Program-made: the position numbers and the translations under genes
Notes under the pieces: generated by a model
The model's database searches: none
Told to the model about the DNA's origin: nothing
Seen by the model: the letters and a program-made list of their open reading frames with translations, nothing else
Shown here: one piece after another, positions 6,522-20,716 of the stretch
How positions within the stretch are numbered: position 1 is the stretch's first letter
Layout of the letters: every line of letters begins with the position of its first letter
Origin: a phage
Length of the DNA: 44,996 nt
Sequence record: PZ789432.1
Reading direction: 5' to 3' (one strand)

Positions 6522-6740
6522 ATGGCTAAATACAGAATCAAGACCTGTTTAAATAGTCACGGGCAAGAATTCTACGTAGTGCAACGTAAAGTATTAGGCT
6601 TAATATGGCTCACTTGTATGATGCCTATTGGCTATACTGATACAGAGGCTATCTTCTGCACCGAAAGGGATGCAAAGAAGTTTATCTCTAAGCGTAGAAA
6701 AGCTGACTCTTACCAACCTAGAATTATTAAGGTGAACTAA
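6522..6740 (+). CDS. hypothetical protein (72 aa)
   Basis: ORF track; between gene 1.1-like and primase-helicase. Confidence 0.55.
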   Translation: MAKYRIKTCLNSHGQEFYVVQRKVLGLIWLTCMMPIGYTDTEAIFCTERDAKKFISKRRKADSYQPRIIKVN

Positions 6741-8728
6741 TGGCTATTATTAATAACATCCCGTGCCCTGCCTGTCAAAAGAATGGACATGATATTACTG
6801 GCAACCATCTTATGATATTTGAGGATGGCGCTGGTTACTGTAACCGTGGTCACTTCCATGATAATGGTAAGCCTTATTACCATAAGCCAGAGGGTGGTAT
6901 CGAGATAACCGAATTGCCTATTACTGGCAATATCAAATATACACCTTCTCAATTCAAAGAAATGGAGAAGGAAGGGAAGATAAGCGACCCTAAGCTACGC
7001 GCCATCGCACTTGGTGGTATGCGTATGAAAGATCGTTGGGAGGTCATGAATGAGCAAGAAAGGGCAGACCAAGAAGCAGAGTGGAAGCTTGATGTTGAAT
7101 GGTTCCTCACGCTTAAGCGTAAGAACCTTGTATCCCGTCACATTCGAGGTGACATCGCAGCAATGTACGATGTGCGCGTTGGACACGATGAAGAGGGAAG
7201 AGTCAACCGTCACTATTATCCACGATATGAAAAGGGTGTGCTTGTTGGAGCAAAATGCCGGACGTTGCCGAAGGATTTTAAGTTCGGACACCTAGGTAAA
7301 CTCTTTGGTATGCAAGACCTTTTCGGTATGAACACTTTGTCTCACGTGTTAGACAAGGGGAGACGAAAGGATTGCTTGCTTATTGTAGGCGGTGAACTTG
7401 ATGCACTAGCAGCGCAGCAGATGCTCCTTGATTCTGCCAAGGGTACTAAGTGGGAAGGCCAGCCATACCATGTATGGTCTGTCAACAAAGGCGAGTCTTG
7501 TCTTGAAGAGATAGTGCAAAACCGTGAGCATATCGCCCAATTCAAGAAGATTATATGGGGTTTTGATGGAGATGAGGTAGGGCAGAAGCAGAATCAGCAA
7601 GCGGCTCGCCTGTTTCCTGGCAAATCCTATATCCTTGAATACCCCTCTGGTTGCAAAGATGCTAACAAGGCATTGATGGCTGGCAAGGCTAAAGAGTTTG
7701 TAGATGCATGGTTTAATGCCAAGTCATCTGATGAAGTCTTTGGTAGCCAGATTAAATCTATCGCATCTCAAAGGGATAAGCTCAAGGCTGCACGTCCAGA
7801 GCAAGGACTATCATGGCCTTGGCCTAAGCTGAACAAGGTCACGCTAGGTATTCGTAAGAACCAACTTATCATTGTAGGCGCAGGCTCTGGTGTAGGTAAG
7901 ACTGAGTTCCTTCGTGAAGTAGTTAAGCACCTCATTGAAGAACACGGTGAATCTGTAGGCATCATTTCTACAGAAGACCCGATGGTCAAGGTGTCCCGTG
8001 CTTTTATCGGCAAGTGGATTGATAAGCGCATTGAGTTACCGCCAACCAACGACCCGAAAGAAGATGGATACCGTGAGGTGTTCGACTACACCGAGGAAGA
8101 GGCTAACGCCGCCATTGATTATGTAGCTGATACAGGTAAGCTGTTTGTAGCTGACCTAGAGGGTGACTATTCGATGGAAAAGGTAGAGCAAACTTGCCTA
8201 GAGTTTGAGGCTATGGGCATTTCTAATATCATCATTGATAACTTAACGGGGATTAAATTAGATGAGCGTGCTTTTGGTGGGAAGGTTGGTGCACTTGATG
8301 AATGCGTCAAGCGGATTGGTACTATCAAAGACCGACACCCGGTTACTATATTCCTTGTATCACACCTTACACGTCCTCCGGCAAACCGTACCCAACACGA
8401 AGAAGGTGGCGAGGTTATCCTTTCTGACTTCCGAGGCTCAGGCGCTATCGGATTCTGGGCATCTTACGCCTTGGGGATTGAGCGTAATACAAGAGCTGAA
8501 ACGCTTGACGAAAGGACTACCACGTACATCTCATGTGTCAAAGACCGCGACCAAGGAATATTTTCCGGTACTCGTATAATGCTTAAAGGTGATATTGCTA
8601 CTGGTCGATTACGTGAACCAGAGCAAAGATCTCGACCGTTTGATACTGGTGCTCCAAAAGAACAAACTGTACCAGAAGAAGTAGTGGATAAAGGAGGATT
8701 TATTGCTGACGAAGTTGAAGAGTTTTGA
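6740..8728 (+). CDS. DNA primase/helicase (T7 gp4-like)
   Basis: 662 aa; N-terminal zinc ribbon CPACQ...CNRGH; Walker A VGAGSGVGKTEF; acidic C-terminus ending EEF. Confidence 0.93.
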   Translation: MAIINNIPCPACQKNGHDITGNHLMIFEDGAGYCNRGHFHDNGKPYYHKPEGGIEITELPITGNIKYTPSQFKEMEKEGKISDPKLRAIALGGMRMKDRWEVMNEQERADQEAEWKLDVEWFLTLKRKNLVSRHIRGDIAAMYDVRVGHDEEGRVNRHYYPRYEKGVLVGAKCRTLPKDFKFGHLGKLFGMQDLFGMNTLSHVLDKGRRKDCLLIVGGELDALAAQQMLLDSAKGTKWEGQPYHVWSVNKGESCLEEIVQNREHIAQFKKIIWGFDGDEVGQKQNQQAARLFPGKSYILEYPSGCKDANKALMAGKAKEFVDAWFNAKSSDEVFGSQIKSIASQRDKLKAARPEQGLSWPWPKLNKVTLGIRKNQLIIVGAGSGVGKTEFLREVVKHLIEEHGESVGIISTEDPMVKVSRAFIGKWIDKRIELPPTNDPKEDGYREVFDYTEEEANAAIDYVADTGKLFVADLEGDYSMEKVEQTCLEFEAMGISNIIIDNLTGIKLDERAFGGKVGALDECVKRIGTIKDRHPVTIFLVSHLTRPPANRTQHEEGGEVILSDFRGSGAIGFWASYALGIERNTRAETLDERTTTYISCVKDRDQGIFSGTRIMLKGDIATGRLREPEQRSRPFDTGAPKEQTVPEEVVDKGGFIADEVEEF

Positions 8729-9191
8729 GGCAGCAGGATATACCATCAAGGAGGATGGTACTATCCTTAACCCTAAAGGTGTAATACTTAAACCGAGCCA
8801 ATCAGGAAGGAAATTAAAGTATTTATATGTAAGTTGGAGACATCAAGGAAGAAGAGTAACAGAGCTTGTACACAGATTGGTTGCTAAGAAGTACATACCC
8901 AACCCACACAGTTTACCAGAAATTCATCATAAAGACTTTAACCCTCTTAATTGTCATAAAGACAATCTTGAATGGACAGATGGTAAGACTAATTGTGAGT
9001 ATAGTTATGCAAGGGTAGAAGCTGCACTTGCACGTCATGCTACTTTATTGTCACCTGATGGCATTAAGTACGACATATTTAATGTTCGTAAATTCTGCCG
9101 CGAACATGGCCTCAATCCACCTAGTGTATTTGAGGTGCTTAGTGGTAAACGGAAGTCACATAAAGGGTGGACTATTTACCGGACACTATAG
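8703..9191 (+). CDS. HNH homing endonuclease
   Basis: 162 aa; EIHHKDFNPLNCHKDNLEW HNH motif. No in-frame ATG; starts at TTG 8703 six nt after AAGGAGG, inside the last 26 nt of the helicase gene. Confidence 0.8.
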   Translation: MLTKLKSFEAAGYTIKEDGTILNPKGVILKPSQSGRKLKYLYVSWRHQGRRVTELVHRLVAKKYIPNPHSLPEIHHKDFNPLNCHKDNLEWTDGKTNCEYSYARVEAALARHATLLSPDGIKYDIFNVRKFCREHGLNPPSVFEVLSGKRKSHKGWTIYRTL

Positions 9192-10703: not shown

Positions 10704-10908
10704 ATTAAGCAAGGTTTGCTCTTGCGGTAAAGGCTATCGCAGTCGTATTGATGGTAAGTGTGGACATTGTAGGTCTAAGAAAGAGGCTGCTTTGTTTTAC
10801 AAATACCACAATGAACTCTCCTATAACTACCCTCATCTAACACCTAATTCTTTATTAGGACTTGGTTATAGGGCTAAATACTTTGGAGCAATCTATGAAA
10901 TCAATTGA
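10690..10908 (+). CDS. hypothetical zinc-ribbon protein (72 aa)
   Basis: ORF track 10663..10908; ATG 10690 preferred (GAGG 6 nt upstream); CSCGKG...CGHC motif. Confidence 0.5.
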   Translation: MKTIKLSKVCSCGKGYRSRIDGKCGHCRSKKEAALFYKYHNELSYNYPHLTPNSLLGLGYRAKYFGAIYEIN

Positions 10909-11380
10909 TTGGAAGAAGGAAGCGGAAGGGCGCATCCTAGTTATGGACGCCGAGGCGAAAGGTCTACTTGATGCTATACGCTATGGTCATCGTGAAGACG
11001 TGCATATCATCTGCTGTATGGACCTGTTGACTACAGAGGAGTTTCTCTTCTTCGACCCGTATGAGATGCGTGACCCTGAAGCAAGAGAACGCCTGAAGGA
11101 ATGGGAAGGTCATCAAGATGGTGACTTGGTTGATGGTGTTAACTTCCTGAAGCATTGTGAAGCTATTGTGTCACAGAACTTCCTAGGGTATGACGGACTT
11201 CTCTTTGAGAAAGCATTCCCTGATATTTGGAAGGGCTTTAACTATACCGAGAAGCGCGGTAAGGGCAGACTCCGTGCTGACCTGTGTCCGGTGCGAGTCA
11301 TGGATACGCTGGTGATGAGTCGCCTGTTAAACCCAGATAAGACGCCTTCCTCCGCAAGCATATGCCAAAGGTATGGGTAA
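10895..11380 (+). CDS. DNA polymerase (Pol I family), fragment 1 of 4: 3'-5' exonuclease domain; frame-disrupted
   Basis: ORF track 10862..11380 (TTG), first ATG 10895; Exo motifs ILVMDAEAKGL and NFLGYDGLLFEKAF; VMDTLVMSRLL parallels T7 gp5 CIDTLVLSRLI. Homology continues in another frame. Confidence 0.85.
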   Translation: MKSIDWKKEAEGRILVMDAEAKGLLDAIRYGHREDVHIICCMDLLTTEEFLFFDPYEMRDPEARERLKEWEGHQDGDLVDGVNFLKHCEAIVSQNFLGYDGLLFEKAFPDIWKGFNYTEKRGKGRLRADLCPVRVMDTLVMSRLLNPDKTPSSASICQRYG

Positions 11381-11786
11381 CGTCGCCCCTCACTCAATTG
11401 AGGCGCACGGCATCCGTATAGGCCGCTATAAACCGGAGAACGAGGACTGGTCTAAACTAACTGACCACATGGTTCACCGTGTACGTGAGGACGTGGCGAT
11501 TGGTCGTGACTTGTTCCTCTGGCTCTTTAACGGGGAATGGATGGAGCATAAACGCCGTGGCGTGAATAAACGCACGGGCCTAGGCATTGAGACAGCCTTC
11601 CACATGGAGTCCATTGTGGCGCTGGAGATGAGCCGTCAGGCCGAGCGGGGGTTCCGTCTGGACATCGACAAGGCTTTGGCCCGATGCGAAGAATTGGACG
11701 CTAAGATTGATGAGACAGTCGCAGCGTTCCGCCCTCACATGCCTATGCGTATCAAGTCTAAACCTTTTAAACCGGAAGAAAAGTAA
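11373..11786 (+). CDS. DNA polymerase, fragment 2 of 4; frame-disrupted
   Basis: HSIEAHGIRIGRYK parallels T7 gp5 HALEAWGYRLGEMK; the frame is open upstream from 11331, so the shift lies near 11335..11372. Confidence 0.8.
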   Translation: MGNVAPHSIEAHGIRIGRYKPENEDWSKLTDHMVHRVREDVAIGRDLFLWLFNGEWMEHKRRGVNKRTGLGIETAFHMESIVALEMSRQAERGFRLDIDKALARCEELDAKIDETVAAFRPHMPMRIKSKPFKPEEK

Positions 11787-12445
11787 TGAAGTATGCCAAC
11801 GCGCAAATGAGTATGGAGCTAGCAACAATATACCTACTGTCCTTGACCCCTCACACTTTCTTCATGCCGAGAGACGAGGAGATCGCAAGACAGTATGGAG
11901 AGCTTGTCACTACTAAGTCTGGTGATTGGTCGGCTAGTGTTAAGAAAGACTTTCCTCACCTTAGAGGAAACCGTAATGACACGCCAAGCATCAAGTGGAT
12001 TGGCGCTTACTCGCCTGTTACTTTCGAAGAGATTCCCTTGGGTAACAGGGATACAGTTAAGCAAGTGCTCTATGATTATGGATGGAAAGGTGTTGAATTT
12101 AACGATACCGAGCAAGCGCATCTCGATGAGTACGGAGTGTTACCCAAACCTTGGAGTGGTAAGATAAATGAAAAGTCCCTCACTTTATGGCAAGAAAGAG
12201 CCGCACGTGAAGGTAAAACAGTACCTGATTGGTGCTTGGGTATCGCTGCATGGTACATACTCGTATCCCGTCGTGGTCAGATACTCAACCGTGGTGACGT
12301 TGAAGCCTTCAACGAGAAGGGGAACGTGGCCCTCGCAGGCTGGTGTACGAAAGTGTCGCGGCCTTGTACCTGTAGCATTCAACAAGGAGCTAGGAATCAA
12401 TGCGCAGCAATACTACGAGAGGTACGGATGTTGGCCTACGTCTGA
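11786..12445 (+). CDS. DNA polymerase, fragment 3 of 4; frame-disrupted
   Basis: Back in the frame of fragment 1; polymerase-like over its N-terminal two thirds. Confidence 0.7.
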   Translation: MKYANAQMSMELATIYLLSLTPHTFFMPRDEEIARQYGELVTTKSGDWSASVKKDFPHLRGNRNDTPSIKWIGAYSPVTFEEIPLGNRDTVKQVLYDYGWKGVEFNDTEQAHLDEYGVLPKPWSGKINEKSLTLWQERAAREGKTVPDWCLGIAAWYILVSRRGQILNRGDVEAFNEKGNVALAGWCTKVSRPCTCSIQQGARNQCAAILREVRMLAYV

Positions 12446-13448
12446 CAAAGATGACGGAGAGTGGCGTGTTCCAGCTGTTGCTATTAGTATTGGCACTTCT
12501 ACGTTCCGTATGCGTCATCGTAACGTGGTTAATATTCCTGCCCGTGGCTTGTATCCTTTACGTGATTTATTCATAGCAGGGAAAGGCAAGCTAATCCTTG
12601 GTTGTGACGGTGCAGGTCTTGAACTGCGTGTCCTGTCTCACTTCATGAATGACCCTGAGTACCAAGAGATTGTACTGCACGGTGATATTCATACGCATAA
12701 CCAGATGAAGGCTGGTCTTCCTAAGCGTGATATGGCGAAGACGTTTATATACGCCTTCCTCTATGGTTCTGGTATAGCCAACCTTGCAGCAGTCTGCGGT
12801 GTTACTGAGGAAGAAATGAAGGAAGTTGTGGCAAGATTCGAGATTGAACTACCGTCTCTTGCACGTCTTCGTGAGAATGTTATCGCACAAGGTAACAAGT
12901 TTGGCTACCTGCAAGCACCTGATGGGCATTGGGGTCGCATCCGCATGTCTGGTGGTGAACTTAAAGAGCACACGATGCTTAACGTATTACTCCAGATGAC
13001 TGGCTCTTTGTGTATGAAATATGCATTAGTCAAGGCATTTGCAGTAATGCGCAAGGAAGGTGTAGCTTTGGATGCTATGGGAAATCCTTGTGGTGTGGCT
13101 AACGTGCATGATGAAATCCAGATGGAAGTTCCTGAAGAGGAGGTCTTGTATCTTAACTACGACCTACCTTTCACCTTAGATGGGTTCGAAACAGAGAAGG
13201 CTGCTGTGAAAGCAGTTTTCGATGCAGAGGAGAAACGTGTTCATGTGGATTCTGAAGGACGTATGTGGTCTGCTGCAAACCTCGTTAGCGTTGATGCTGA
13301 TGCTGGTGTATTGCATTGCCAGCGCCGTTATCACCGTGCAGGTCATATCATTGCCGACGCCATGACTTGGGCAGGGCAGTATCTGAAGATGCGTTGCCCG
13401 ATGGCAGGAGAATATAAGATTGGCGCAAGCTGGAAGGAAACACACTGA
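12168..13448 (+). CDS. DNA polymerase, fragment 4 of 4: palm/fingers; frame-disrupted
   Basis: Motif A GCDGAGLELRVLSHF, TSTFRMRHRNVVNIP (T7 TGRATHAFPNLAQIP), KTFIYAFLYG, VHDEIQ. Reliable homology starts near 12430; the first ~260 nt of this ORF overlap fragment 3. Confidence 0.85.
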   Translation: MKSPSLYGKKEPHVKVKQYLIGAWVSLHGTYSYPVVVRYSTVVTLKPSTRRGTWPSQAGVRKCRGLVPVAFNKELGINAQQYYERYGCWPTSDKDDGEWRVPAVAISIGTSTFRMRHRNVVNIPARGLYPLRDLFIAGKGKLILGCDGAGLELRVLSHFMNDPEYQEIVLHGDIHTHNQMKAGLPKRDMAKTFIYAFLYGSGIANLAAVCGVTEEEMKEVVARFEIELPSLARLRENVIAQGNKFGYLQAPDGHWGRIRMSGGELKEHTMLNVLLQMTGSLCMKYALVKAFAVMRKEGVALDAMGNPCGVANVHDEIQMEVPEEEVLYLNYDLPFTLDGFETEKAAVKAVFDAEEKRVHVDSEGRMWSAANLVSVDADAGVLHCQRRYHRAGHIIADAMTWAGQYLKMRCPMAGEYKIGASWKETH

Positions 13449-13564
13449 TGGATAGGCTTGACATTATTTGCCTATTCTTCACTCTCTTTCTTACACTCCT
13501 TATGCTTGCTTGTTATGGGAGTATGAGACTAGATATACCTGATGAAGAAGAGGGTTACGACTAA
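13448..13564 (+). CDS. hypothetical small membrane protein (38 aa)
   Basis: ATG overlaps the polymerase stop (TGATG); hydrophobic core. Confidence 0.35.
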   Translation: MDRLDIICLFFTLFLTLLMLACYGSMRLDIPDEEEGYD

Positions 13565-13662
13565 TGCAAACTGCTTTTATTATTCTTGGTATCATATTAT
13601 TTATGGTAGTACTCTGGGCCTTCTCTGGCATTGACCCGGATTGTGATGGTAACTACGACTGA
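13564..13662 (+). CDS. hypothetical small membrane protein (32 aa)
   Basis: ATG overlaps the previous stop (TAATG); hydrophobic. Confidence 0.3.
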   Translation: MQTAFIILGIILFMVVLWAFSGIDPDCDGNYD

Positions 13663-13730
13663 GTTATACTCAAGGTCACTTACGGGTGGCCTTTATGGAT
13701 AACTTATCCCTACTTATTTTGTCTAACATG

Positions 13731-13753
13731 ATTTACTGTACACTATAGAAGGA
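13731..13753 (+). promoter_or_regulatory. phage RNAP promoter variant (atttactgtacactatagaagg)
   Basis: Consensus with G to T at -9; +1 G at 13748. Confidence 0.6.
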
Positions 13754-13817
13754 AAGCCTAGACAATCTAGGTTTATAAGGTAGTATAGGTAATTAAGTAA
13801 ATATAGGAGATATAAAC

Positions 13818-14195
13818 ATGTCTATGGTAACTACTCTGGTATTTGTAGCTCAATACTTTCGTGGTCTGGCTAATAAGTTCAAGTCCAAGGCTATCAAAGC
13901 TATTGAGTCTCGCATCGAGGCAGTACAGGCAGAGCAAGTTAAAGTTGAAGAACATCGTAGTTCTCAAATGATTGACTGTCATAACCGCTACTATGCATCT
14001 CGTGATGAACTAAATGCACGTCAAGTCAAAGAGGTAGAAGATATGCTGGCACGTCACCAGCAAGAGCGTGACAGCCTGAAAGCTGAATTTGAAGAGAACA
14101 AGGCATCAATTGCTCTTGTAAATCAAGCTGCATCTGACAGCCTGAAGAAAGAGATTGTTATGCTGGAAATAGAACTGGACAACTTGACTAAATAA
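13818..14195 (+). CDS. hypothetical coiled-coil protein (125 aa)
   Basis: ORF track; SD AGGAG; Glu/Lys/Gln-rich heptad-like sequence. Confidence 0.7.
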   Translation: MSMVTTLVFVAQYFRGLANKFKSKAIKAIESRIEAVQAEQVKVEEHRSSQMIDCHNRYYASRDELNARQVKEVEDMLARHQQERDSLKAEFEENKASIALVNQAASDSLKKEIVMLEIELDNLTK

Positions 14196-14204
14196 GGGGT
14201 TATG

Positions 14205-14501
14205 ATGGAAGAAGTGATTCAAGCTAAACATGTAGGTATCATCTTTCGTGATCTAGAGCAGCGTAAAGTTGCAGGTCACACTCGTCTGGCTAAAGAATAC
14301 GATACAGCAATCACTACTGTGGAACAAGCAGATGCCTATCGTGGTCCAGAGTTTACTCAAGGTGAAACTTGTCATCAATTGAGCCTTTCACTTTGTGACA
14401 CTATGGCTAGTGTAAATGTACAAGAGGTTGAAGATGGTGAATGTGTTAGTTATGTCTACCCTCTCGACACTATTGCACGTATTAAGGTAGTTCATAAGTA
14501 A
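14205..14501 (+). CDS. hypothetical protein (98 aa)
   Basis: ORF track 14202..14501; second ATG (14205) has better spacing to AAGGGG. Confidence 0.65.
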   Translation: MEEVIQAKHVGIIFRDLEQRKVAGHTRLAKEYDTAITTVEQADAYRGPEFTQGETCHQLSLSLCDTMASVNVQEVEDGECVSYVYPLDTIARIKVVHK

Positions 14502-14522
14502 TTACTGGACACTATAGAACAA
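14500..14522 (+). promoter_or_regulatory. phage RNAP promoter (aattactggacactatagaacaa)
   Basis: Consensus match; +1 G at 14517. Confidence 0.7.
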
Positions 14523-14578
14523 TAGGTCGGCTTAGTTCGGCCTATGATTGTGTAGTGTAACAATAGGAGACTAAATAA

Positions 14579-15385
14579 ATGGCACGTGGTGATTTTGATT
14601 TTGGTGCTCAGGTTACTAAAGCTGAAGGTAAAGTATTTAAGAACCCTGAAGTTGGTGATCATGAAGCAGTAATCTCTGGCATCATTCATGTTGGTTCCTT
14701 CCAAGATATCTTTAAGAAAGGTAATACCACTGAAGTTAAGAAGCCAGCAAACTTTGTTCTTGTTAAGATTATCCTGATGGGTGACGACGATAAGAATGAA
14801 GATGATTCTCGCATGGAACAATGGATGGCTGTGCCTCTGAAGTCTGGTGATAAGGCAACACTGACTAAGTTCCTGAATGCAGTTGACCCTAAAGAGTTGC
14901 TGGGTGGCTTCGATGATTTTATCGGTGAATGCCTGACTGCAACTATGGTTGGCTCTGGCGACAAGAATGATGATGGTACTTTCAAGTATGTTAACTGGAA
15001 AGGCTTTGGCGGTATGCCTGATAAGTTGAAGAAGCTTGTACTGGCTCAGGTAGAAGAGGAAGGTCTGTCTATGACAGGTCATATCACCTTCGACAAGCTG
15101 ACCAAAGAAATCCTTGATGACATCCCAGCTAACTTGGTGCGTCAATACTTCCTTAATGAAACACCTCGTGGTAAGAACCTGTCTGTTGCTGGTTCTCACG
15201 TAGAAGCAATCATTAAAGCTGCTCGTGAAGAAGACCCAGAGTGGAAGAAAGCCAAGAAGAAAGATGACGAGGATGCTACTCCAGCTAATCGTAAATCTCT
15301 GGATACTGGTGAGTCTGTTCCACAGGAAGTACCTGAAGCAGAAGATACTCCTGCACCGGAGATGGATGAGGACGCGGAATATTAA
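14579..15385 (+). CDS. hypothetical protein with acidic C-terminal tail (268 aa); possible ssDNA-binding or replisome accessory protein
   Basis: ORF track; SD AGGAG; C-terminal 40 aa very acidic, ending DEDAEY. Confidence 0.7.
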   Translation: MARGDFDFGAQVTKAEGKVFKNPEVGDHEAVISGIIHVGSFQDIFKKGNTTEVKKPANFVLVKIILMGDDDKNEDDSRMEQWMAVPLKSGDKATLTKFLNAVDPKELLGGFDDFIGECLTATMVGSGDKNDDGTFKYVNWKGFGGMPDKLKKLVLAQVEEEGLSMTGHITFDKLTKEILDDIPANLVRQYFLNETPRGKNLSVAGSHVEAIIKAAREEDPEWKKAKKKDDEDATPANRKSLDTGESVPQEVPEAEDTPAPEMDEDAEY

Positions 15386-15394
15386 GGAGAAAGG

Positions 15395-15613
15395 ATGAAA
15401 GTACAAATCGTAACTCTGCACTGCAAGAAAGGTATCACAACGCTCGGAGGTAGCACTTTCCACTCTTTCTCCGAAGGGGAGATTTATGCTGACCTGCACT
15501 ACATCTGGCGCGACGGACAGCACGTGGTGAACTACAGCGACCCAGCTACGGGGAAACGCCACGGCGTATCGCTTCCGGCGCATGACATTGCTCAGGTGAA
15601 CACAGTTTTATAA
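15395..15613 (+). CDS. hypothetical protein (72 aa)
   Basis: ORF track; SD AAGGAG 5 nt upstream. Confidence 0.6.
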   Translation: MKVQIVTLHCKKGITTLGGSTFHSFSEGEIYADLHYIWRDGQHVVNYSDPATGKRHGVSLPAHDIAQVNTVL

Positions 15614-15614
15614 A

Positions 15615-15630
15615 GTCTCACGTGTGAGAC
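15615..15630. repeat. 16-bp palindrome GTCTCACGTGTGAGAC
   Basis: Same family; 15 bp upstream of a phage promoter. Confidence 0.8.
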
Positions 15631-15644
15631 AAATCGGTGTCCGG

Positions 15645-15668
15645 TATTTACTGGACACTATAGAAGAG
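15645..15668 (+). promoter_or_regulatory. phage RNAP promoter (tatttactggacactatagaagag)
   Basis: Exact consensus; +1 G at 15663. Confidence 0.8.
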
Positions 15669-15718
15669 AAGAATTTTAATCGGCGATAATGCCATAACCA
15701 ACAAAAGGAGAATTTAAT

Positions 15719-16099
15719 ATGTTCAAGATTGAAACTATCGTAAACCGTGTTGTTAAAGGTGCTGCTCTGGTATCCGTTGAGTCTTTCATTATCGTCGATG
15801 AAGCTGATCAACTGGTAGCTGGTACTAAGGCTTACGATACCCGTGAAGAAGCTCAGGCTAAGATTGACAGCATGGGTAACTTCGCTGCTGGTTTGGAGTT
15901 CGCTCGTGCTTGCTTCCCTGAGCAGGCTGACAAAGCTCAGATTGGTAAGGCTAATATCGTAGCTGAATATCTGGATTGGATTGCTGCTGGTAAGCCGGTG
16001 AAAGAAGTTAAGTCTGCTGAAGAAGCTGAATCTCAGGCAGTAGAAGAAGAAGTAGCTGCACCGGTAGATGCTCCGGTAAGCGAAGAGGAAGAGTTTTAA
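15719..16099 (+). CDS. hypothetical acidic protein (126 aa) ending SEEEEF; candidate SSB-like or polymerase-interacting protein
   Basis: ORF track; strong SD AAAGGAG; framed by a consensus promoter and a hairpin terminator. Confidence 0.75.
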   Translation: MFKIETIVNRVVKGAALVSVESFIIVDEADQLVAGTKAYDTREEAQAKIDSMGNFAAGLEFARACFPEQADKAQIGKANIVAEYLDWIAAGKPVKEVKSAEEAESQAVEEEVAAPVDAPVSEEEEF

Positions 16100-16105
16100 T
16101 TGATG

Positions 16106-16137
16106 CCCTGTCTGCCTTAGTGTAGGCAGGGTCTTTT
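16106..16137 (+). terminator. hairpin + U-run terminator
   Basis: ccctgtctgc-cttagt-gtaggcaggg followed by TCTTTT; similar in sequence to the terminator after the capsid gene. Confidence 0.6.
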
Positions 16138-16163
16138 GCGTAATAGTTATTGGAGAATGAATT

Positions 16164-16469
16164 ATGCCGACTATTAAATCTCGTTTAGTAGCAGACTATG
16201 TGTATGGTCGTGACTTAAAGTTAATGCAAGATTACTTTAAAGTAATCATCCTGCTGGATGGAGAAGTGTTTCACACTAAAACATTCACCCTTCCTGAATT
16301 GTTTGATTTAGGTTATTGGGGTTATACATATCAGGCCATAGCAGACAAGGTGCTACTCAGTGTATTAGAGGAGTGGCCTACATGCGACCAAACTTCGACT
16401 TCGGAGCTACAGTATCGGAAGACAATAACCTGTTGCTGTGGCCAACTGAAGGTAATAGAATCGCTTTAA
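16164..16469 (+). CDS. hypothetical protein (101 aa)
   Basis: ORF track; SD GGAG; 3' end overlaps the exonuclease start. Confidence 0.55.
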   Translation: MPTIKSRLVADYVYGRDLKLMQDYFKVIILLDGEVFHTKTFTLPELFDLGYWGYTYQAIADKVLLSVLEEWPTCDQTSTSELQYRKTITCCCGQLKVIESL

Positions 16470-17026
16470 TAGATGCTGACATGTTACCCTACATCGTAGG
16501 TTATACAATCAGTGACATGACTTATGTACGAGCCACAACTCGTGTTAAGTCAGGACAAGTCCCATCAATCAAAGATACACCTGAGTGTAAGCAAGCGTGT
16601 GACCGTGTGAACTCCTTGCTCAACTCTTGGGTGTATGCAGCAGAGTGTGATGCAGCTAAGTTATTCATGACGAAATCAGAAGCTAACTTCCGTGTTCGCC
16701 TAGCCTTCACCAAGCCTTACAAGGGTCAACGTAAGACCGAGAAGCCTCCGTTCTTCTATGAATTGCGAGAGCATCTCTTAGAGGTTCATGGTGCAATCTT
16801 GGCAGATGGAGAAGAGGCTGATGACCTCATGAGCATTGCACAATGGGACAGCCACCGCCGCTTCCAGCAAGCTACAGGTAACGAGTTCCCTATCGGTAGT
16901 CCAGAGCATAAAGCATTCTCTGATACTTGCATCGTTTCCTTAGATAAGGATTTGATGATTGTTCCCGGTTGGCATCTTCAGCCGGGTCAAGAGAAGAAAT
17001 GGGTTAGAGCCTATGGGTTGGCTTGA
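16382..17026 (+). CDS. 5'-3' exonuclease (T7 gp6-like), fragment 1 of 2; frame-disrupted
   Basis: ORF track 16316..17026 (non-ATG); ATG 16382 after GAGGAG; IALIDADMLPY, EEADDLMSIAQ and IVSLDKDLMIVPGW parallel T7 gp6. Confidence 0.85.
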   Translation: MRPNFDFGATVSEDNNLLLWPTEGNRIALIDADMLPYIVGYTISDMTYVRATTRVKSGQVPSIKDTPECKQACDRVNSLLNSWVYAAECDAAKLFMTKSEANFRVRLAFTKPYKGQRKTEKPPFFYELREHLLEVHGAILADGEEADDLMSIAQWDSHRRFQQATGNEFPIGSPEHKAFSDTCIVSLDKDLMIVPGWHLQPGQEKKWVRAYGLA

Positions 17027-17411
17027 GCTACGCCGTAAGGCTAATGGTCAGGTTAAAGACCTTAAAGGTGCTGGCCTCATGTTTCATTATGCACAGATGA
17101 TTATCGGTGATGATATTGATAACTATGCTGGCATACCTGGACGTGGTGCTAAATACGCCTATGATCTTCTCAAAGATTGTAAGACAGAGAAAGAGTTGTA
17201 CATGGCAGTGCTTGGTGCTTACAAGGCTAAGTTCGGACATGGACAAGTTAAGATTAAGAATTACCGAGGTGGTTATCGTATCGGCAAGGCTTTTGACCTG
17301 ATGCTCGAATGTGGTCGCCTAGCGCACATGGCAAGATTCAAAGGTGATATATGGCGAGCCGATAAGAACCCAATCTTGTGGGGAGATGATGCGGAATGGT
17401 TAGCAAATTAA
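16959..17411 (+). CDS. 5'-3' exonuclease, fragment 2 of 2; frame-disrupted
   Basis: MFHYAQMIIGDDIDNYAGIPGRG parallels T7 gp6 HLFQTIKGDITDGYSGIAGWG; the frame changes near 16990..17026. Confidence 0.8.
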   Translation: MFPVGIFSRVKRRNGLEPMGWLELRRKANGQVKDLKGAGLMFHYAQMIIGDDIDNYAGIPGRGAKYAYDLLKDCKTEKELYMAVLGAYKAKFGHGQVKIKNYRGGYRIGKAFDLMLECGRLAHMARFKGDIWRADKNPILWGDDAEWLAN

Positions 17412-19585: not shown

Positions 19586-20529
19586 ACATCTTCCAATTCC
19601 TAGGTCTTCCAGAAGACCACCGCAATCATCCATTCATGCTGGTGAAGCATCGCGGTGAAGTTCCTGAGAAGAAACTTACTTTTCCATGTTATGCACAGGT
19701 GAAACGAGATGGAATATTCAGTGCTGTTGTGGTGCGCAATGATGGTGCTGTTGCCGTCTTTGGTCGTACTGGTAAGAAGCTCGCAAATGTTGAAGCCTTG
19801 GAAAAGACATTTAGTGTATTTCCTGTCGGGTTGTATCTTGGTGAGTTGCAATCTATGGCTGTTGATGTTTATCTTGAAGCTCTGTCAGGAGTGGTAAACC
19901 CTAATCGTACAGAGCCACTTGACTTCATAGGCCAGCAGATTAAAGACAACCTGTATATCGACTTCTTCGATATGTTAACTATTAAGGCATTCCATGATGG
20001 ATTCACTGATGTTTCTTATCTCAAACGTTACGATGCTTTACATCGTCGTATCGGCACTCATCTTAGCGGGTGCAACGCTATCCTTCCTATCACTCCTTGC
20101 CATAATGAGCGAGAAGTTGAAGCGTTTGCGCAAGAGCAAATAGATGCAGGACGTGAGGGTGCTGTATTCAAACTGGACTGCGATTATGAAGCAGGACACA
20201 AAGGTTATCGTCAGACTAAAGAAGTCCGTAAGGTAACTTATGACCTTACTTGTATTGGCTTTGAAGAAGGTAAAGGTAAATACAAAGGTAAGGTAGCTAA
20301 CCTCATTTTCAAGTGGAAAGGGGGCAAGACAATCAAAGCTATGCTCGGTAAAGGGTGGACTCATGCAGATGCAGAACAGATGTTCCACGATATTAAACAT
20401 GGCGGACGGTTGAATGTCATTGGTAAAATCTTTGAAGTCAAAGGTCTTCAGGATTCAAGCAAGGGCAACATTCGTCTGCCCAAAGCGGGAGAATTAAGAC
20501 ATGACAAAGATGAACCAGATTTCTTTTGA
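19582..20529 (+). CDS. ATP-dependent DNA ligase
   Basis: 315 aa; adenylation motif I AQVKRDGIF (KxDG); SD AAGGAGG. Confidence 0.85.
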   Translation: MNIFQFLGLPEDHRNHPFMLVKHRGEVPEKKLTFPCYAQVKRDGIFSAVVVRNDGAVAVFGRTGKKLANVEALEKTFSVFPVGLYLGELQSMAVDVYLEALSGVVNPNRTEPLDFIGQQIKDNLYIDFFDMLTIKAFHDGFTDVSYLKRYDALHRRIGTHLSGCNAILPITPCHNEREVEAFAQEQIDAGREGAVFKLDCDYEAGHKGYRQTKEVRKVTYDLTCIGFEEGKGKYKGKVANLIFKWKGGKTIKAMLGKGWTHADAEQMFHDIKHGGRLNVIGKIFEVKGLQDSSKGNIRLPKAGELRHDKDEPDFF

Positions 20530-20716
20530 TAGCATGAAGGCAACTCGTGCAGTTGAGGTAGCAGAAGCTATCTTTGAAACTTTATCATGTGGCATGGAAG
20601 TGCCATATACTTTACTTGCTGATGCAGAAGAACTTGGTCTTTCTGTAGAAGCTATCCAAGAGAAGGTTGACGAATTATATGGTACAGACGAAGAAGAAAC
20701 CGACGATTTCATTTGA
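20501..20716 (+). CDS. hypothetical small acidic protein (71 aa)
   Basis: ORF track; start overlaps the ligase 3' end; acidic C-terminus EEETDDFI. Confidence 0.55.
   Translation: MTKMNQISFDSMKATRAVEVAEAIFETLSCGMEVPYTLLADAEELGLSVEAIQEKVDELYGTDEEETDDFI

What the first reader, a model, noticed from the sequence alone, without database searches (positions are those of the whole stretch)
14579..15385. Second protein with an acidic C-terminal tail (268 aa) upstream of the SEEEEF protein
The last ~40 residues are very acidic and end ...DEDAEY. Its size is close to T7 gp2.5 (232 aa) but I could not align them by eye. Either this or the 126-aa protein is likely the SSB; the other may compete for the same docking site on the polymerase.
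Basis: inference. Interest (0 to 1): 0.4.

Follow-up and report, generated by a model that had tools for sequence, protein, structure and literature searches.

The report
This 268-residue protein of a K1E/SP6-like phage, labelled "hypothetical" in every database record I sampled, is most likely the phage's missing single-stranded-DNA-binding protein and belongs to a widespread family not yet recognised as such.

Summary
ORF 14579-15385 (+) encodes 268 aa, and its last 40 residues carry 15 D/E against 2 K/R and end in DEDAEY. The window is a Vectrevirus (K1E/K1-5/SP6-like podophage). The protein is K1E gp16 / SP6 gp18. All annotated records among the 60 listed of 216 matching phage records call it hypothetical, bar one HNH label. 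It matches PHROG 862 (unknown function) and no Pfam family.

An AlphaFold model (pLDDT 79) shows an OB-fold core, a helical domain and a disordered acidic tail. The best PDB fold matches are weak but consistently ssDNA-binding OB proteins (PrgE, RPA, SSB, PriB).

The acidic tail ending in an aromatic residue is conserved across the family. Distant members end in DDDIPF/DDEIPF/DDEVPF, the tip I recall for bacterial SSBs. Four of five relatives examined sit among replication or recombination genes. No other SSB is detectable in the genome. The gene has its own phage promoter.

Profile comparisons with T7 gp2.5, N4 SSB and DUF669 found no sequence homology, so it resembles gp2.5 in function, not detectable ancestry.

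The primase-helicase (…DEVEEF) and the 126-aa protein (…SEEEEF) carry similar tails. The 126-aa protein is not predicted to have an OB fold. No biochemistry was possible. Confidence in the SSB role is about 0.75.

The parts
14500..14520 (+). Phage-RNA-polymerase promoter directly upstream of the gene (core TACTGGACACTATAG at 14503-14517)
   Evidence: The pattern scan found 13 matches against 1.5 expected by chance, 12 of them on the + strand. The identical core precedes the major capsid gene (24008) and the 126-aa gene (15649). Sequence read. Reading it as an SP6-type promoter is inference from the known SP6 promoter core (my own knowledge).
14522..14545 (+). Nine-base-pair hairpin in the 5' untranslated leader
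   Evidence: RNA fold of 14517-14581: minimum free energy -14 kcal/mol, z = -1.96 against shuffles. The signal is modest and the function is unknown.
14565..14569 (+). Ribosome-binding site AGGAG, 9 nt before the ATG
   Evidence: Read directly from the sequence.
14579..15385 (+). Coding sequence of the 268-aa candidate SSB (orthologue of K1E gp16 and SP6 gp18; PHROG 862)
14579..14653 (+). Residues 1-25: conserved N-terminal segment (MAR.FDFGAEV..GG.VFKNPEVG) that the model predicts as disordered
   Evidence: Invariant residues M1, F6, G9, A10, G17 and near-invariant F20. pLDDT is 42-46 here. Its role is unknown; an interaction or cooperativity peptide is speculation.
14654..15013 (+). Residues 26-145: predicted OB-fold core. 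Strands 26-47 (hairpin), 50-53, 57-66 and 80-86, then helices 94-102 and 111-114, then strands 118-129 and 135-144
   Evidence: AlphaFold2 model with pLDDT of 80-94 in this region. By my reading of the descriptions, about 35 of the top 50 Foldseek PDB hits are ssDNA-binding OB proteins: PrgE, RPA, SSB, PriB, telomere and editosome OB proteins.
15014..15238 (+). Residues 146-220: C-terminal helical domain carrying the family-wide N-x-x-x-x-G-S motif (G205 and S206 are invariant among close relatives)
15242..15262 (+). Residues 222-228: basic patch KKAKKKD(D) that comes before the acidic tail
15263..15382 (+). Residues 229-268: disordered acidic tail ending MDEDAEY, the putative partner-docking and autoinhibitory tail
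   Evidence: pLDDT below 50. 15 D/E against 2 K/R. The terminal aromatic residue is conserved.
15719..16099 (+). Neighbouring 126-aa gene (orthologue of SP6 gp20) with an invariant tail ending S-E-E-E-E-F. Not predicted to have an OB fold; function unknown
   Evidence: It has its own promoter at 15649.
8705..8725 (+). C-terminal seven residues (ADEVEEF) of the primase-helicase (gene 6740..8728), the third acidic tail with a terminal aromatic in the genome
   Evidence: T7 gp4 ends ...SNDTDF.

Best explanation
The gene encodes the phage's own single-stranded-DNA-binding protein.

Proposed mechanism, all inferred:
- The OB-fold core (about residues 26-145) coats the ssDNA exposed at the replication fork and at recombination intermediates.
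- The helical domain (about residues 146-220) is a family-specific addition that may mediate self-association.
- The disordered acidic tail, ending in an aromatic residue, would do what the tails of T7 gp2.5 and bacterial SSB do. It would fold back on the DNA-binding surface when no DNA is bound, and it would dock onto basic patches of the phage DNA polymerase or primase-helicase to couple the SSB to the replisome.

The gene is transcribed from its own phage promoter as a middle (DNA-metabolism) gene.

What is shown: the ORF, the tail and its conservation, the predicted fold class, the gene contexts of relatives, and the absence of any other recognisable SSB.

What is inferred: ssDNA binding, tail docking, and any strand-annealing activity.
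For: 1. Fold. The AlphaFold2 model has mean pLDDT 79 and pTM 0.71, with secondary structure in the OB order: strands, helix, strands. The top Foldseek PDB hits are PrgE bound to DNA (8s4t, E = 1.9e-3, probability 1.00), yeast and human RPA subunits, bacterial SSBs and PriB. BFVD hits include DUF669 proteins (E about 3e-5) and one protein annotated as SSB. DUF669 and N4-type proteins are published SSBs or predicted SSBs with diverged OB folds and acidic tails (PMC4889955, PMC5928155).

2. Tail logic.
- All 29 closer relatives end in an acidic stretch plus Y or F.
- In the 84-member deep family, 58 have an aromatic among the last three residues. Members such as P0075, P0109, P0131, P0134, P0093, P0123, P0121 and P0127 end in DDDIPF, DDEIPF, DDEVPF, DDDCPF or DDDLPF.
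- That tip matches the one I recall for E. coli SSB (own knowledge, not checked here). It also appears in some proteins of the proven HK620-type SSB family, which end DDDIPF, DDGIPF or DDQIPF.

3. Context. In this genome the order is DNA polymerase, small genes, this gene, then the exonuclease. Relatives show:
- DNA polymerase, this family, exonuclease (P0075).
- Primase-helicase, ligase, DNA polymerase, this family, dGTP pyrophosphohydrolase, 5'-3' exonuclease, Holliday-junction resolvase (P0101).
- Exonuclease, an unknown gene, this family, then a weak NinB/Orf match at E = 5e-4 (P0131).
- The gene stretch between a cI-like repressor and the integrase of a temperate phage (P0123). This is the same stretch where the HK620 SSB lies.
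- Beside an AAA_23 protein, an exonuclease and a DEAD-type helicase (P0084).

4. No alternative SSB. None is annotated in the related RefSeq genome. HMMs for gp2.5 and DUF669 found nothing in the six-frame translation of the window. The eight further window ORFs I scanned against PHROGs gave no SSB family.

5. Parallel with T7. gp2.5 ends ...EADEDGDF and gp4 ends ...SNDTDF. Here the candidate SSB ends ...MDEDAEY and the primase-helicase ends ...ADEVEEF. The SP6-type polymerase carries a basic insertion at the position of the T7 thioredoxin-binding domain (the alignment there is unreliable).

6. The gene has its own strong-consensus phage promoter and ribosome-binding site.
Against: - There is no experimental evidence of any kind.
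- No sequence-level link to a proven SSB family was found. hhalign probabilities against T7 gp2.5 (single sequence and a 62-sequence alignment), N4 SSB and an HK620/DUF669 alignment were all below 1%. Those target profiles were narrow (Neff 2-2.6).
- There is no Pfam hit and no relative by sequence among solved structures.
- The Foldseek PDB matches are weak: best E = 1.9e-3, TM-score at most 0.47, large rmsd. None passes 1e-3. T7 gp2.5 is not among the top 50.
- The only curated family related to this one, NCBIfam NF046043, is named 'phage replication initiation protein'.
- I could not read the original SP6 and K1-5 genome papers, which may already discuss this gene.
Confidence: 0.75

Rival explanations
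1. It is a replication initiation (origin-binding) protein or a primase accessory, as the name of the related NCBIfam family NF046043 ('phage replication initiation protein, NGO0469 family') implies.
For: 81 of 84 deep-family members match NF046043, with a best E of 1.3e-63. The window protein matches weakly (E = 1.5e-3, 18 bits). NGO0469 is called 'replication initiation' or 'probably the primase' in PMC1931599.
Against: - That name rests only on weak BLAST similarities: 26% over 109 aa to a nanovirus Rep and 32% over 87 aa to a phage A2 primase.
- Members that pass the NCBIfam cutoff end in DDEVPF or DDEIPF, which are SSB-type tips.
- One temperate-phage member lies between the repressor and the integrase, where the HK620 SSB lies, and not on the other side of the divergent HTH gene. 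Placing lambdoid initiators on that other side is my own knowledge.
- The window protein scores 18 bits against a cutoff of 75 bits.
- From my own knowledge, T7-group phages start replication by RNA-polymerase transcription and need no initiator protein.
- The predicted fold is an OB fold with ssDNA-binder matches.
Confidence: 0.07
2. It is mainly a recombination protein: a single-strand annealing protein or recombination mediator that works with the neighbouring 5'-3' exonuclease, not the replicative SSB.
For: The gene lies just upstream of the exonuclease here and in relatives. One relative sits beside an exonuclease and a weak NinB/Orf match. T7 gp2.5 is annotated as both an ssDNA-binding and an ssDNA-annealing protein.
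Against: This does not exclude the SSB role, since gp2.5 does both. There is no similarity to the Rad52/Redβ/Erf, RecT or Sak4 families in Pfam or PHROGs. The genome would then have no SSB at all.
Confidence: 0.1
3. It is a non-DNA-binding accessory that uses its acidic tail to bind the DNA polymerase or a host protein, for example a processivity or regulatory factor or an inhibitor that mimics SSB tails.
For: Three proteins in the genome share the acidic tail with a terminal aromatic, so the tail alone does not identify an SSB. The fold matches are weak.
Against: The globular part is predicted as an OB fold whose matches are almost all ssDNA binders. The family occurs in very different phage types whose tail tips differ, including the bacterial-type tip. 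That pattern fits one conserved core activity with exchangeable partner tags.
Confidence: 0.05

Closest known systems
T7 gp2.5 (PHROG 112, 'Gp2.5-like ssDNA binding and annealing protein')
   Same: Similar size (232 against 268 aa) and the same computed pI of 4.70. Both combine an OB-fold core with a disordered acidic tail ending in an aromatic residue (DGDF against DAEY). Both belong to a phage with a T7-type replisome whose helicase carries a similar tail.
   Different: No detectable sequence homology: hhalign probability below 1% and no PHROG 112 hit. No gp2.5 structure appears in the top 50 fold matches. This protein has an extra helical domain of about 75 residues and a conserved N-terminal peptide. 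The gene lies after the DNA polymerase, whereas T7 gene 2.5 lies before the primase-helicase gene.
DUF669 / N4-type phage SSBs (HK620 HkaK, N4 gp45)
   Same: These are atypical, strongly diverged OB-fold SSBs with acidic C-terminal tails, found in phages that lack a classical SSB (PMC4889955, PMC5928155). Foldseek matches to predicted DUF669 structures reach E of about 3e-5. N4 gp45 is about the same length, 265 aa.
   Different: No Pfam DUF669 hit for any of the 84 family members. hhalign against an HK620-type alignment and against N4 gp45 was negative. DUF669 genes usually sit beside sak4, and there is no sak4 here.
Bacterial SSB (E. coli type) and plasmid PrgE
   Same: They are the best solved-structure matches, PrgE first. 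Distant members of this family end in DDDIPF or DDEIPF, the tip I recall for bacterial SSB.
   Different: The matches are weak (E between 2e-3 and 0.4). There is no Pfam SSB hit. This protein's own tip is DEDAEY, not IPF. Its oligomeric state is unknown.
NCBIfam NF046043 (NGO0469 family, 'phage replication initiation protein')
   Same: This is clearly the same superfamily: 81 of 84 relatives match it, with a best E of 1.3e-63.
   Different: The window protein scores 18 bits against a cutoff of 75. The family name appears to be an unsupported legacy annotation.

Membership tests
PHROG 862 (unknown function) | Significant full-length match to the family HMM | tested here: met
   E = 2.9e-60, residues 10-258 against profile positions 8-265 of 276. 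All 84 deep-family members also match.
T7 gp2.5-like SSB | Sequence or profile similarity to gp2.5 (PHROG 112) | tested here: not met
   No PHROG 112 hit. hhalign probability 0.1-0.2% against gp2.5 alone and against a 62-sequence gp2.5 alignment.
T7 gp2.5-like SSB | Structural match to the gp2.5 OB fold | tested here: inconclusive
   The model has an OB-type order of strands and helix and matches other OB ssDNA binders. No gp2.5 structure is listed among the top 50 Foldseek hits. No direct pairwise superposition was possible.
T7 gp2.5-like SSB | Acidic C-terminal tail ending in an aromatic residue | tested here: met
   The tail holds 15 D/E in 40 residues and ends in Y. It is conserved across the family.
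T7 gp2.5-like SSB | ssDNA binding, and binding of the polymerase and helicase through the tail | not testable with these tools
   This needs biochemistry.
DUF669 / N4-type SSB | Pfam PF05037 match, or a profile match to DUF669 or N4 SSB | tested here: not met
   No Pfam hit for the protein or for any of 84 relatives. hhalign probability below 1%. The comparison profiles were narrow, so a remote relationship is not excluded.
DUF669 / N4-type SSB | Structural similarity to family members | tested here: inconclusive
   Foldseek BFVD hits to proteins named 'DUF669 domain-containing' at E between 3e-5 and 1.5e-4, with TM-scores of 0.3-0.46.
Bacterial SSB (Pfam SSB) | Pfam SSB domain and a C-terminal D-D-D-I-P-F tip | tested here: not met
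   No Pfam hit. The tip here is DEDAEY. Only distant relatives carry IPF-type tips.
NCBIfam NF046043 (NGO0469 family) | Score at or above the curated cutoff of 75 bits | tested here: not met
   18.1 bits, E = 1.5e-3. Relatives P0123, P0084, P0134 and P0093 score 128-168 bits.

The most novel reading that the evidence does not exclude
PHROG 862 together with NCBIfam NF046043 forms a large SSB superfamily that has gone unrecognised, and is partly misnamed as 'replication initiation protein'. Its conserved OB-plus-helical core carries exchangeable C-terminal 'address tags':
- DDDIPF-type tips in phages that use host replication or recombination partners.
- E-x-E-[FY] tips in SP6-like phages with their own T7-type replisome.
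- PPGFxYDPATNSF or DDDxLAxLGL tips in other podophage lineages.

In SP6-like phages the same tag is shared by the SSB, the primase-helicase and a small 126-aa protein. The small protein would then act as a regulator or competitor at the polymerase docking site.
Probability: 0.3. Interest if true: 0.6.

Novelty: new variant of a known kind. Interest (0 to 1): 0.42.

Why it matters
- **Missing component.** SP6/K1E/K1-5-type phages are widely used: SP6 RNA polymerase as a tool, K1 and Klebsiella phages in therapy. Their genome records list no SSB, although an SSB is an essential part of a T7-type replisome.
- **Reannotation.** Assigning this family would fill that gap for at least 216 phage records. 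It would give a function to PHROG 862 and would probably correct the name of an NCBIfam family.
- **Comparative system.** The variety of C-terminal tips on one conserved core offers a natural way to study how SSB tails select their partner proteins.
- **Ordinary kind.** The kind of protein itself, an OB-fold SSB with an acidic tail, is well known.

Tried and rejected
- **Direct homology to T7 gp2.5.** I ran hhalign against the single sequence and against a 62-sequence alignment built from viral contigs. All runs were negative.
- **Homology to N4 SSB and to HK620-type DUF669 proteins**. Negative. An attempt to widen the DUF669 profile from viral contigs returned only near-identical sequences.
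- **Sequence search of solved structures** with the single protein and with two profiles. Only chance-level hits.
- **Pfam scans** of the protein and of 84 relatives. Nothing.
- **The 126-aa protein as the SSB.** The model is low-confidence (pLDDT 62), is not an OB fold and has no significant fold match. Its family is confined to SP6-like phages. Rejected as the SSB; its function remains unknown.
- **The NCBIfam label 'replication initiation protein'.** I traced it to weak BLAST hits in PMC1931599 and judged it unreliable.
- **Other SSBs in the window.** None found with gp2.5 and DUF669 HMMs on the six-frame translation, by PHROG scans of eight further ORFs, or in the RefSeq annotation of a relative.
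- **Literature.** No held paper assigns a function to SP6 gp18 or K1E gp16. The two original genome papers (Dobbins 2004, Scholl 2004) could not be read.

Full report
**What the window is.** The region 13500-16500 is 93-97% identical at the nucleotide level to Vectrevirus genomes. These are K1E/K1-5-type podophages of about 44-46 kb in the Autographiviridae, subfamily Molineuxvirinae. The window therefore covers essentially a whole phage genome of the SP6/K1E group.

**The observation.** ORF 14579..15385 (+) encodes 268 aa and has the same length as the annotated orthologues.
- The last 40 residues hold 15 D/E against 2 K/R and end in DEDAEY. The whole protein has a pI of 4.70, the value I also computed for T7 gp2.5.
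- The 126-aa SEEEEF protein follows at 15719..16099, with a 72-aa ORF in between.
- Among the 143 ORFs of at least 60 aa on both strands, only three have an acidic C-terminus with a terminal aromatic residue. They are this protein (…MDEDAEY), the 126-aa protein (…SEEEEF) and the primase-helicase 6740..8728 (…ADEVEEF).
All 29 aligned relatives, down to 33% identity, end in EY, EF, DF, VY or DFS.

**Existing annotation.**
- There is no Pfam hit.
- PHROG 862, of unknown function, matches at E = 3e-60.
- tblastn found the protein in 216 phage records. Every annotated record among the 60 listed across the identity range calls it hypothetical or of unknown function, including K1E gp16 and SP6 gp18. 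One record carries an HNH label under the match.
- A paper on an SP6-like phage lists the gp18 orthologue as 'Unknown'.
- No SSB is annotated anywhere in the related RefSeq genome.

**Fold.** I built an AlphaFold2 model from a 29-sequence alignment. It has mean pLDDT 79 and pTM 0.71.
- Residues 1-25 are conserved but disordered in the model.
- Residues 26-145 run strands, helix, strands, which is the OB order.
- Residues 146-220 are helical.
- The tail from residue 229 onward is disordered.

In the Foldseek PDB search no hit passed E = 1e-3. The ranking is nevertheless one-sided. DNA-bound PrgE comes first (E = 1.9e-3), followed by RPA subunits, bacterial SSBs, PriB, and telomere and editosome OB proteins. 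By my reading of the descriptions, about 35 of the top 50 are ssDNA-binding OB proteins. T7 gp2.5 is not among them. Against predicted viral structures there are 71 hits below 1e-3. Most are uncharacterised podophage proteins. They also include DUF669 proteins (E about 3e-5) and one annotated SSB. DUF669 and N4-type proteins were predicted to be diverged OB-fold SSBs with acidic tails (PMC4889955). The HK620 member was shown experimentally to be an SSB (PMC5928155).

**The wider family.** A profile search of 1.8 billion representative proteins gave 94 relatives at E below 1e-3. I aligned 83 of them with the window protein, giving 84 sequences.
- All 84 hit PHROG 862 and none hits a meaningful Pfam family.
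- 58 of the 84 have an aromatic residue among the last three.
- Closer members end (L/M)DExxE[FY].
- Many distant members end in DDDIPF, DDEIPF, DDEVPF, DDDLPF or DDDCPF. I recall this as the tip of bacterial SSB (own knowledge, not checked here). Some HK620-type SSB relatives carry it too.
- Other lineages end in PPGFxYDPATNSF or DDDxLAxLGL.

A conserved core with interchangeable C-terminal tips is the pattern expected of SSBs that recruit different partner proteins.

**The NCBIfam link.** 81 of the 84 match NCBIfam NF046043, 'phage replication initiation protein, NGO0469 family', with a best E of 1.3e-63. The window protein scores only 18 bits against a cutoff of 75. Members above the cutoff carry the DDEVPF and DDEIPF tips. 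The family name goes back to weak BLAST similarities reported for NGO0469 (PMC1931599). I regard it as unsupported.

**Gene context.** Here the gene lies between the DNA polymerase and the 5'-3' exonuclease. Relatives show:
- DNA polymerase, this family, exonuclease.
- Primase-helicase, ligase, DNA polymerase, this family, dGTP pyrophosphohydrolase, 5'-3' exonuclease, Holliday-junction resolvase.
- Exonuclease, an unknown gene, this family, then a weak NinB/Orf match at E = 5e-4.
- The gene stretch between a cI-like repressor and the integrase of a temperate phage. This is where the HK620 SSB lies. The replication genes of lambdoid phages lie on the other side of the repressor (own knowledge).
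- Beside an AAA_23 protein, an exonuclease and a DEAD-type helicase.

**Expression signals.** A phage promoter core, TACTGGACACTATAG, lies at 14503-14517. It is identical to the cores before the capsid gene and the 126-aa gene (13 matches against 1.5 expected). A leader hairpin follows, then an AGGAG ribosome-binding site.

**Tests of membership in known SSB families.**
- hhalign of both family alignments against T7 gp2.5, as a single sequence and as a 62-sequence alignment I built, gave probabilities below 1%.
- The same was true against N4 gp45 and against a 30-sequence HK620/DUF669 alignment.
- Searches of solved-structure sequences found nothing.

The protein is therefore not a demonstrable member of the gp2.5, DUF669/N4 or bacterial SSB families by sequence. 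It resembles them in fold class and in tail logic. My comparison profiles were narrow (Neff 2-2.6), so a remote relationship to DUF669 remains possible.

**The 126-aa protein.** Its family is confined to SP6-like phages (SP6 gp20) and has an invariant tail ending S-E-E-E-E-F. The model is poor (pLDDT 62): three strands followed by helices, not an OB fold. It has no significant fold match. It is not the SSB.

T7 gp2.5 ends …EADEDGDF and gp4 ends …SNDTDF. These acidic tails are reported to contact other replication proteins (PMC10359462). The SP6-type polymerase has a basic-rich insertion where T7 has its thioredoxin-binding domain, but the alignment there is unreliable.

**Conclusion.** The most likely reading is that this is the phage's SSB, confidence about 0.75. 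It would be a functional analogue of gp2.5 from a distinct, widespread and currently unannotated or misnamed OB-fold family. Like gp2.5, it may also anneal DNA strands. All mechanistic steps (ssDNA binding, tail docking, autoinhibition) are inferred.

**Rivals.** The alternatives are a replication initiator, a dedicated recombination protein, or a non-DNA-binding accessory. They are less likely for the reasons given in the rival-explanations section.

Noticed in passing
window 10895-13445 and 16382-17408: The DNA polymerase gene is split across five reading-frame segments (frames 2, 3, 1, 2, 3), so it has at least four frameshifts. The 5'-3' exonuclease gene has one. Both are single intact genes in close relatives, 849 and about 341 aa long. 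Sequencing or assembly indel errors seem the likely cause, with real pseudogenisation possible. The 268-aa ORF is intact.
   Followed up: partly
window 6740-8728 (C-terminus at 8705-8725): The primase-helicase ends …ADEVEEF. This is the same acidic tail with a terminal aromatic seen in the 268-aa and 126-aa proteins, and it parallels T7 gp4 (…DTDF) and gp2.5 (…DGDF).
   Followed up: partly
window 15719-16099: The 126-aa protein (SP6 gp20 family; PHROG 4429, unknown function) has its own phage promoter at 15649. Its tail, ending S-E-E-E-E-F, is invariant in 17 of 19 aligned relatives; the other two have SAEEEF. Its fold is unknown and the family occurs only in SP6-like phages. It could be a regulator that uses the same docking tag.
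   Followed up: partly
window 20501-20716: This 71-aa ORF (PHROG 5860, unknown function) has the most acidic C-terminus in the genome, …TDEEETDDFI, with an aromatic residue next to last.
   Followed up: no
window, + strand: 2076, 6160, 9177, 10025, 13734, 14503, 15649, 18804, 24008, 36779, 38884, 40569: Twelve + strand matches to the SP6-type promoter core (…GACACTATAG), against 1.5 expected by chance. Six share the exact core TACTGGACACTATAG.
   Followed up: partly
window 8703-9191: An HNH homing-endonuclease ORF (PHROG 59, E = 5e-30) lies between the primase-helicase and the DNA polymerase region.
   Followed up: no
relatives P0123, P0084, P0134, P0093 (loci L091, L092, L009): NCBIfam NF046043, 'phage replication initiation protein, NGO0469 family', appears to be misnamed. 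Its members have SSB-type C-terminal tips, and the name derives from weak BLAST hits.
   Followed up: partly
relatives P0081, P0089, P0091, P0096, P0101, P0133; and P0098, P0115, P0128, P0111: Two further conserved C-terminal tip motifs occur in the family: PPGFxYDPATNSF after a long Pro/Gln/Ala-rich linker, and DDDxLAxLGL. Their binding partners are unknown.
   Followed up: no
window 14492-15583, minus strand: A 363-aa antisense ORF overlaps the whole gene. I found no evidence that it is a gene and treat it as a mechanical ORF.
   Followed up: no
window 14522-14545: A nine-base-pair hairpin lies in the leader between the promoter and the ribosome-binding site of the 268-aa gene (minimum free energy -14 kcal/mol, z = -1.96).
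   Followed up: partly
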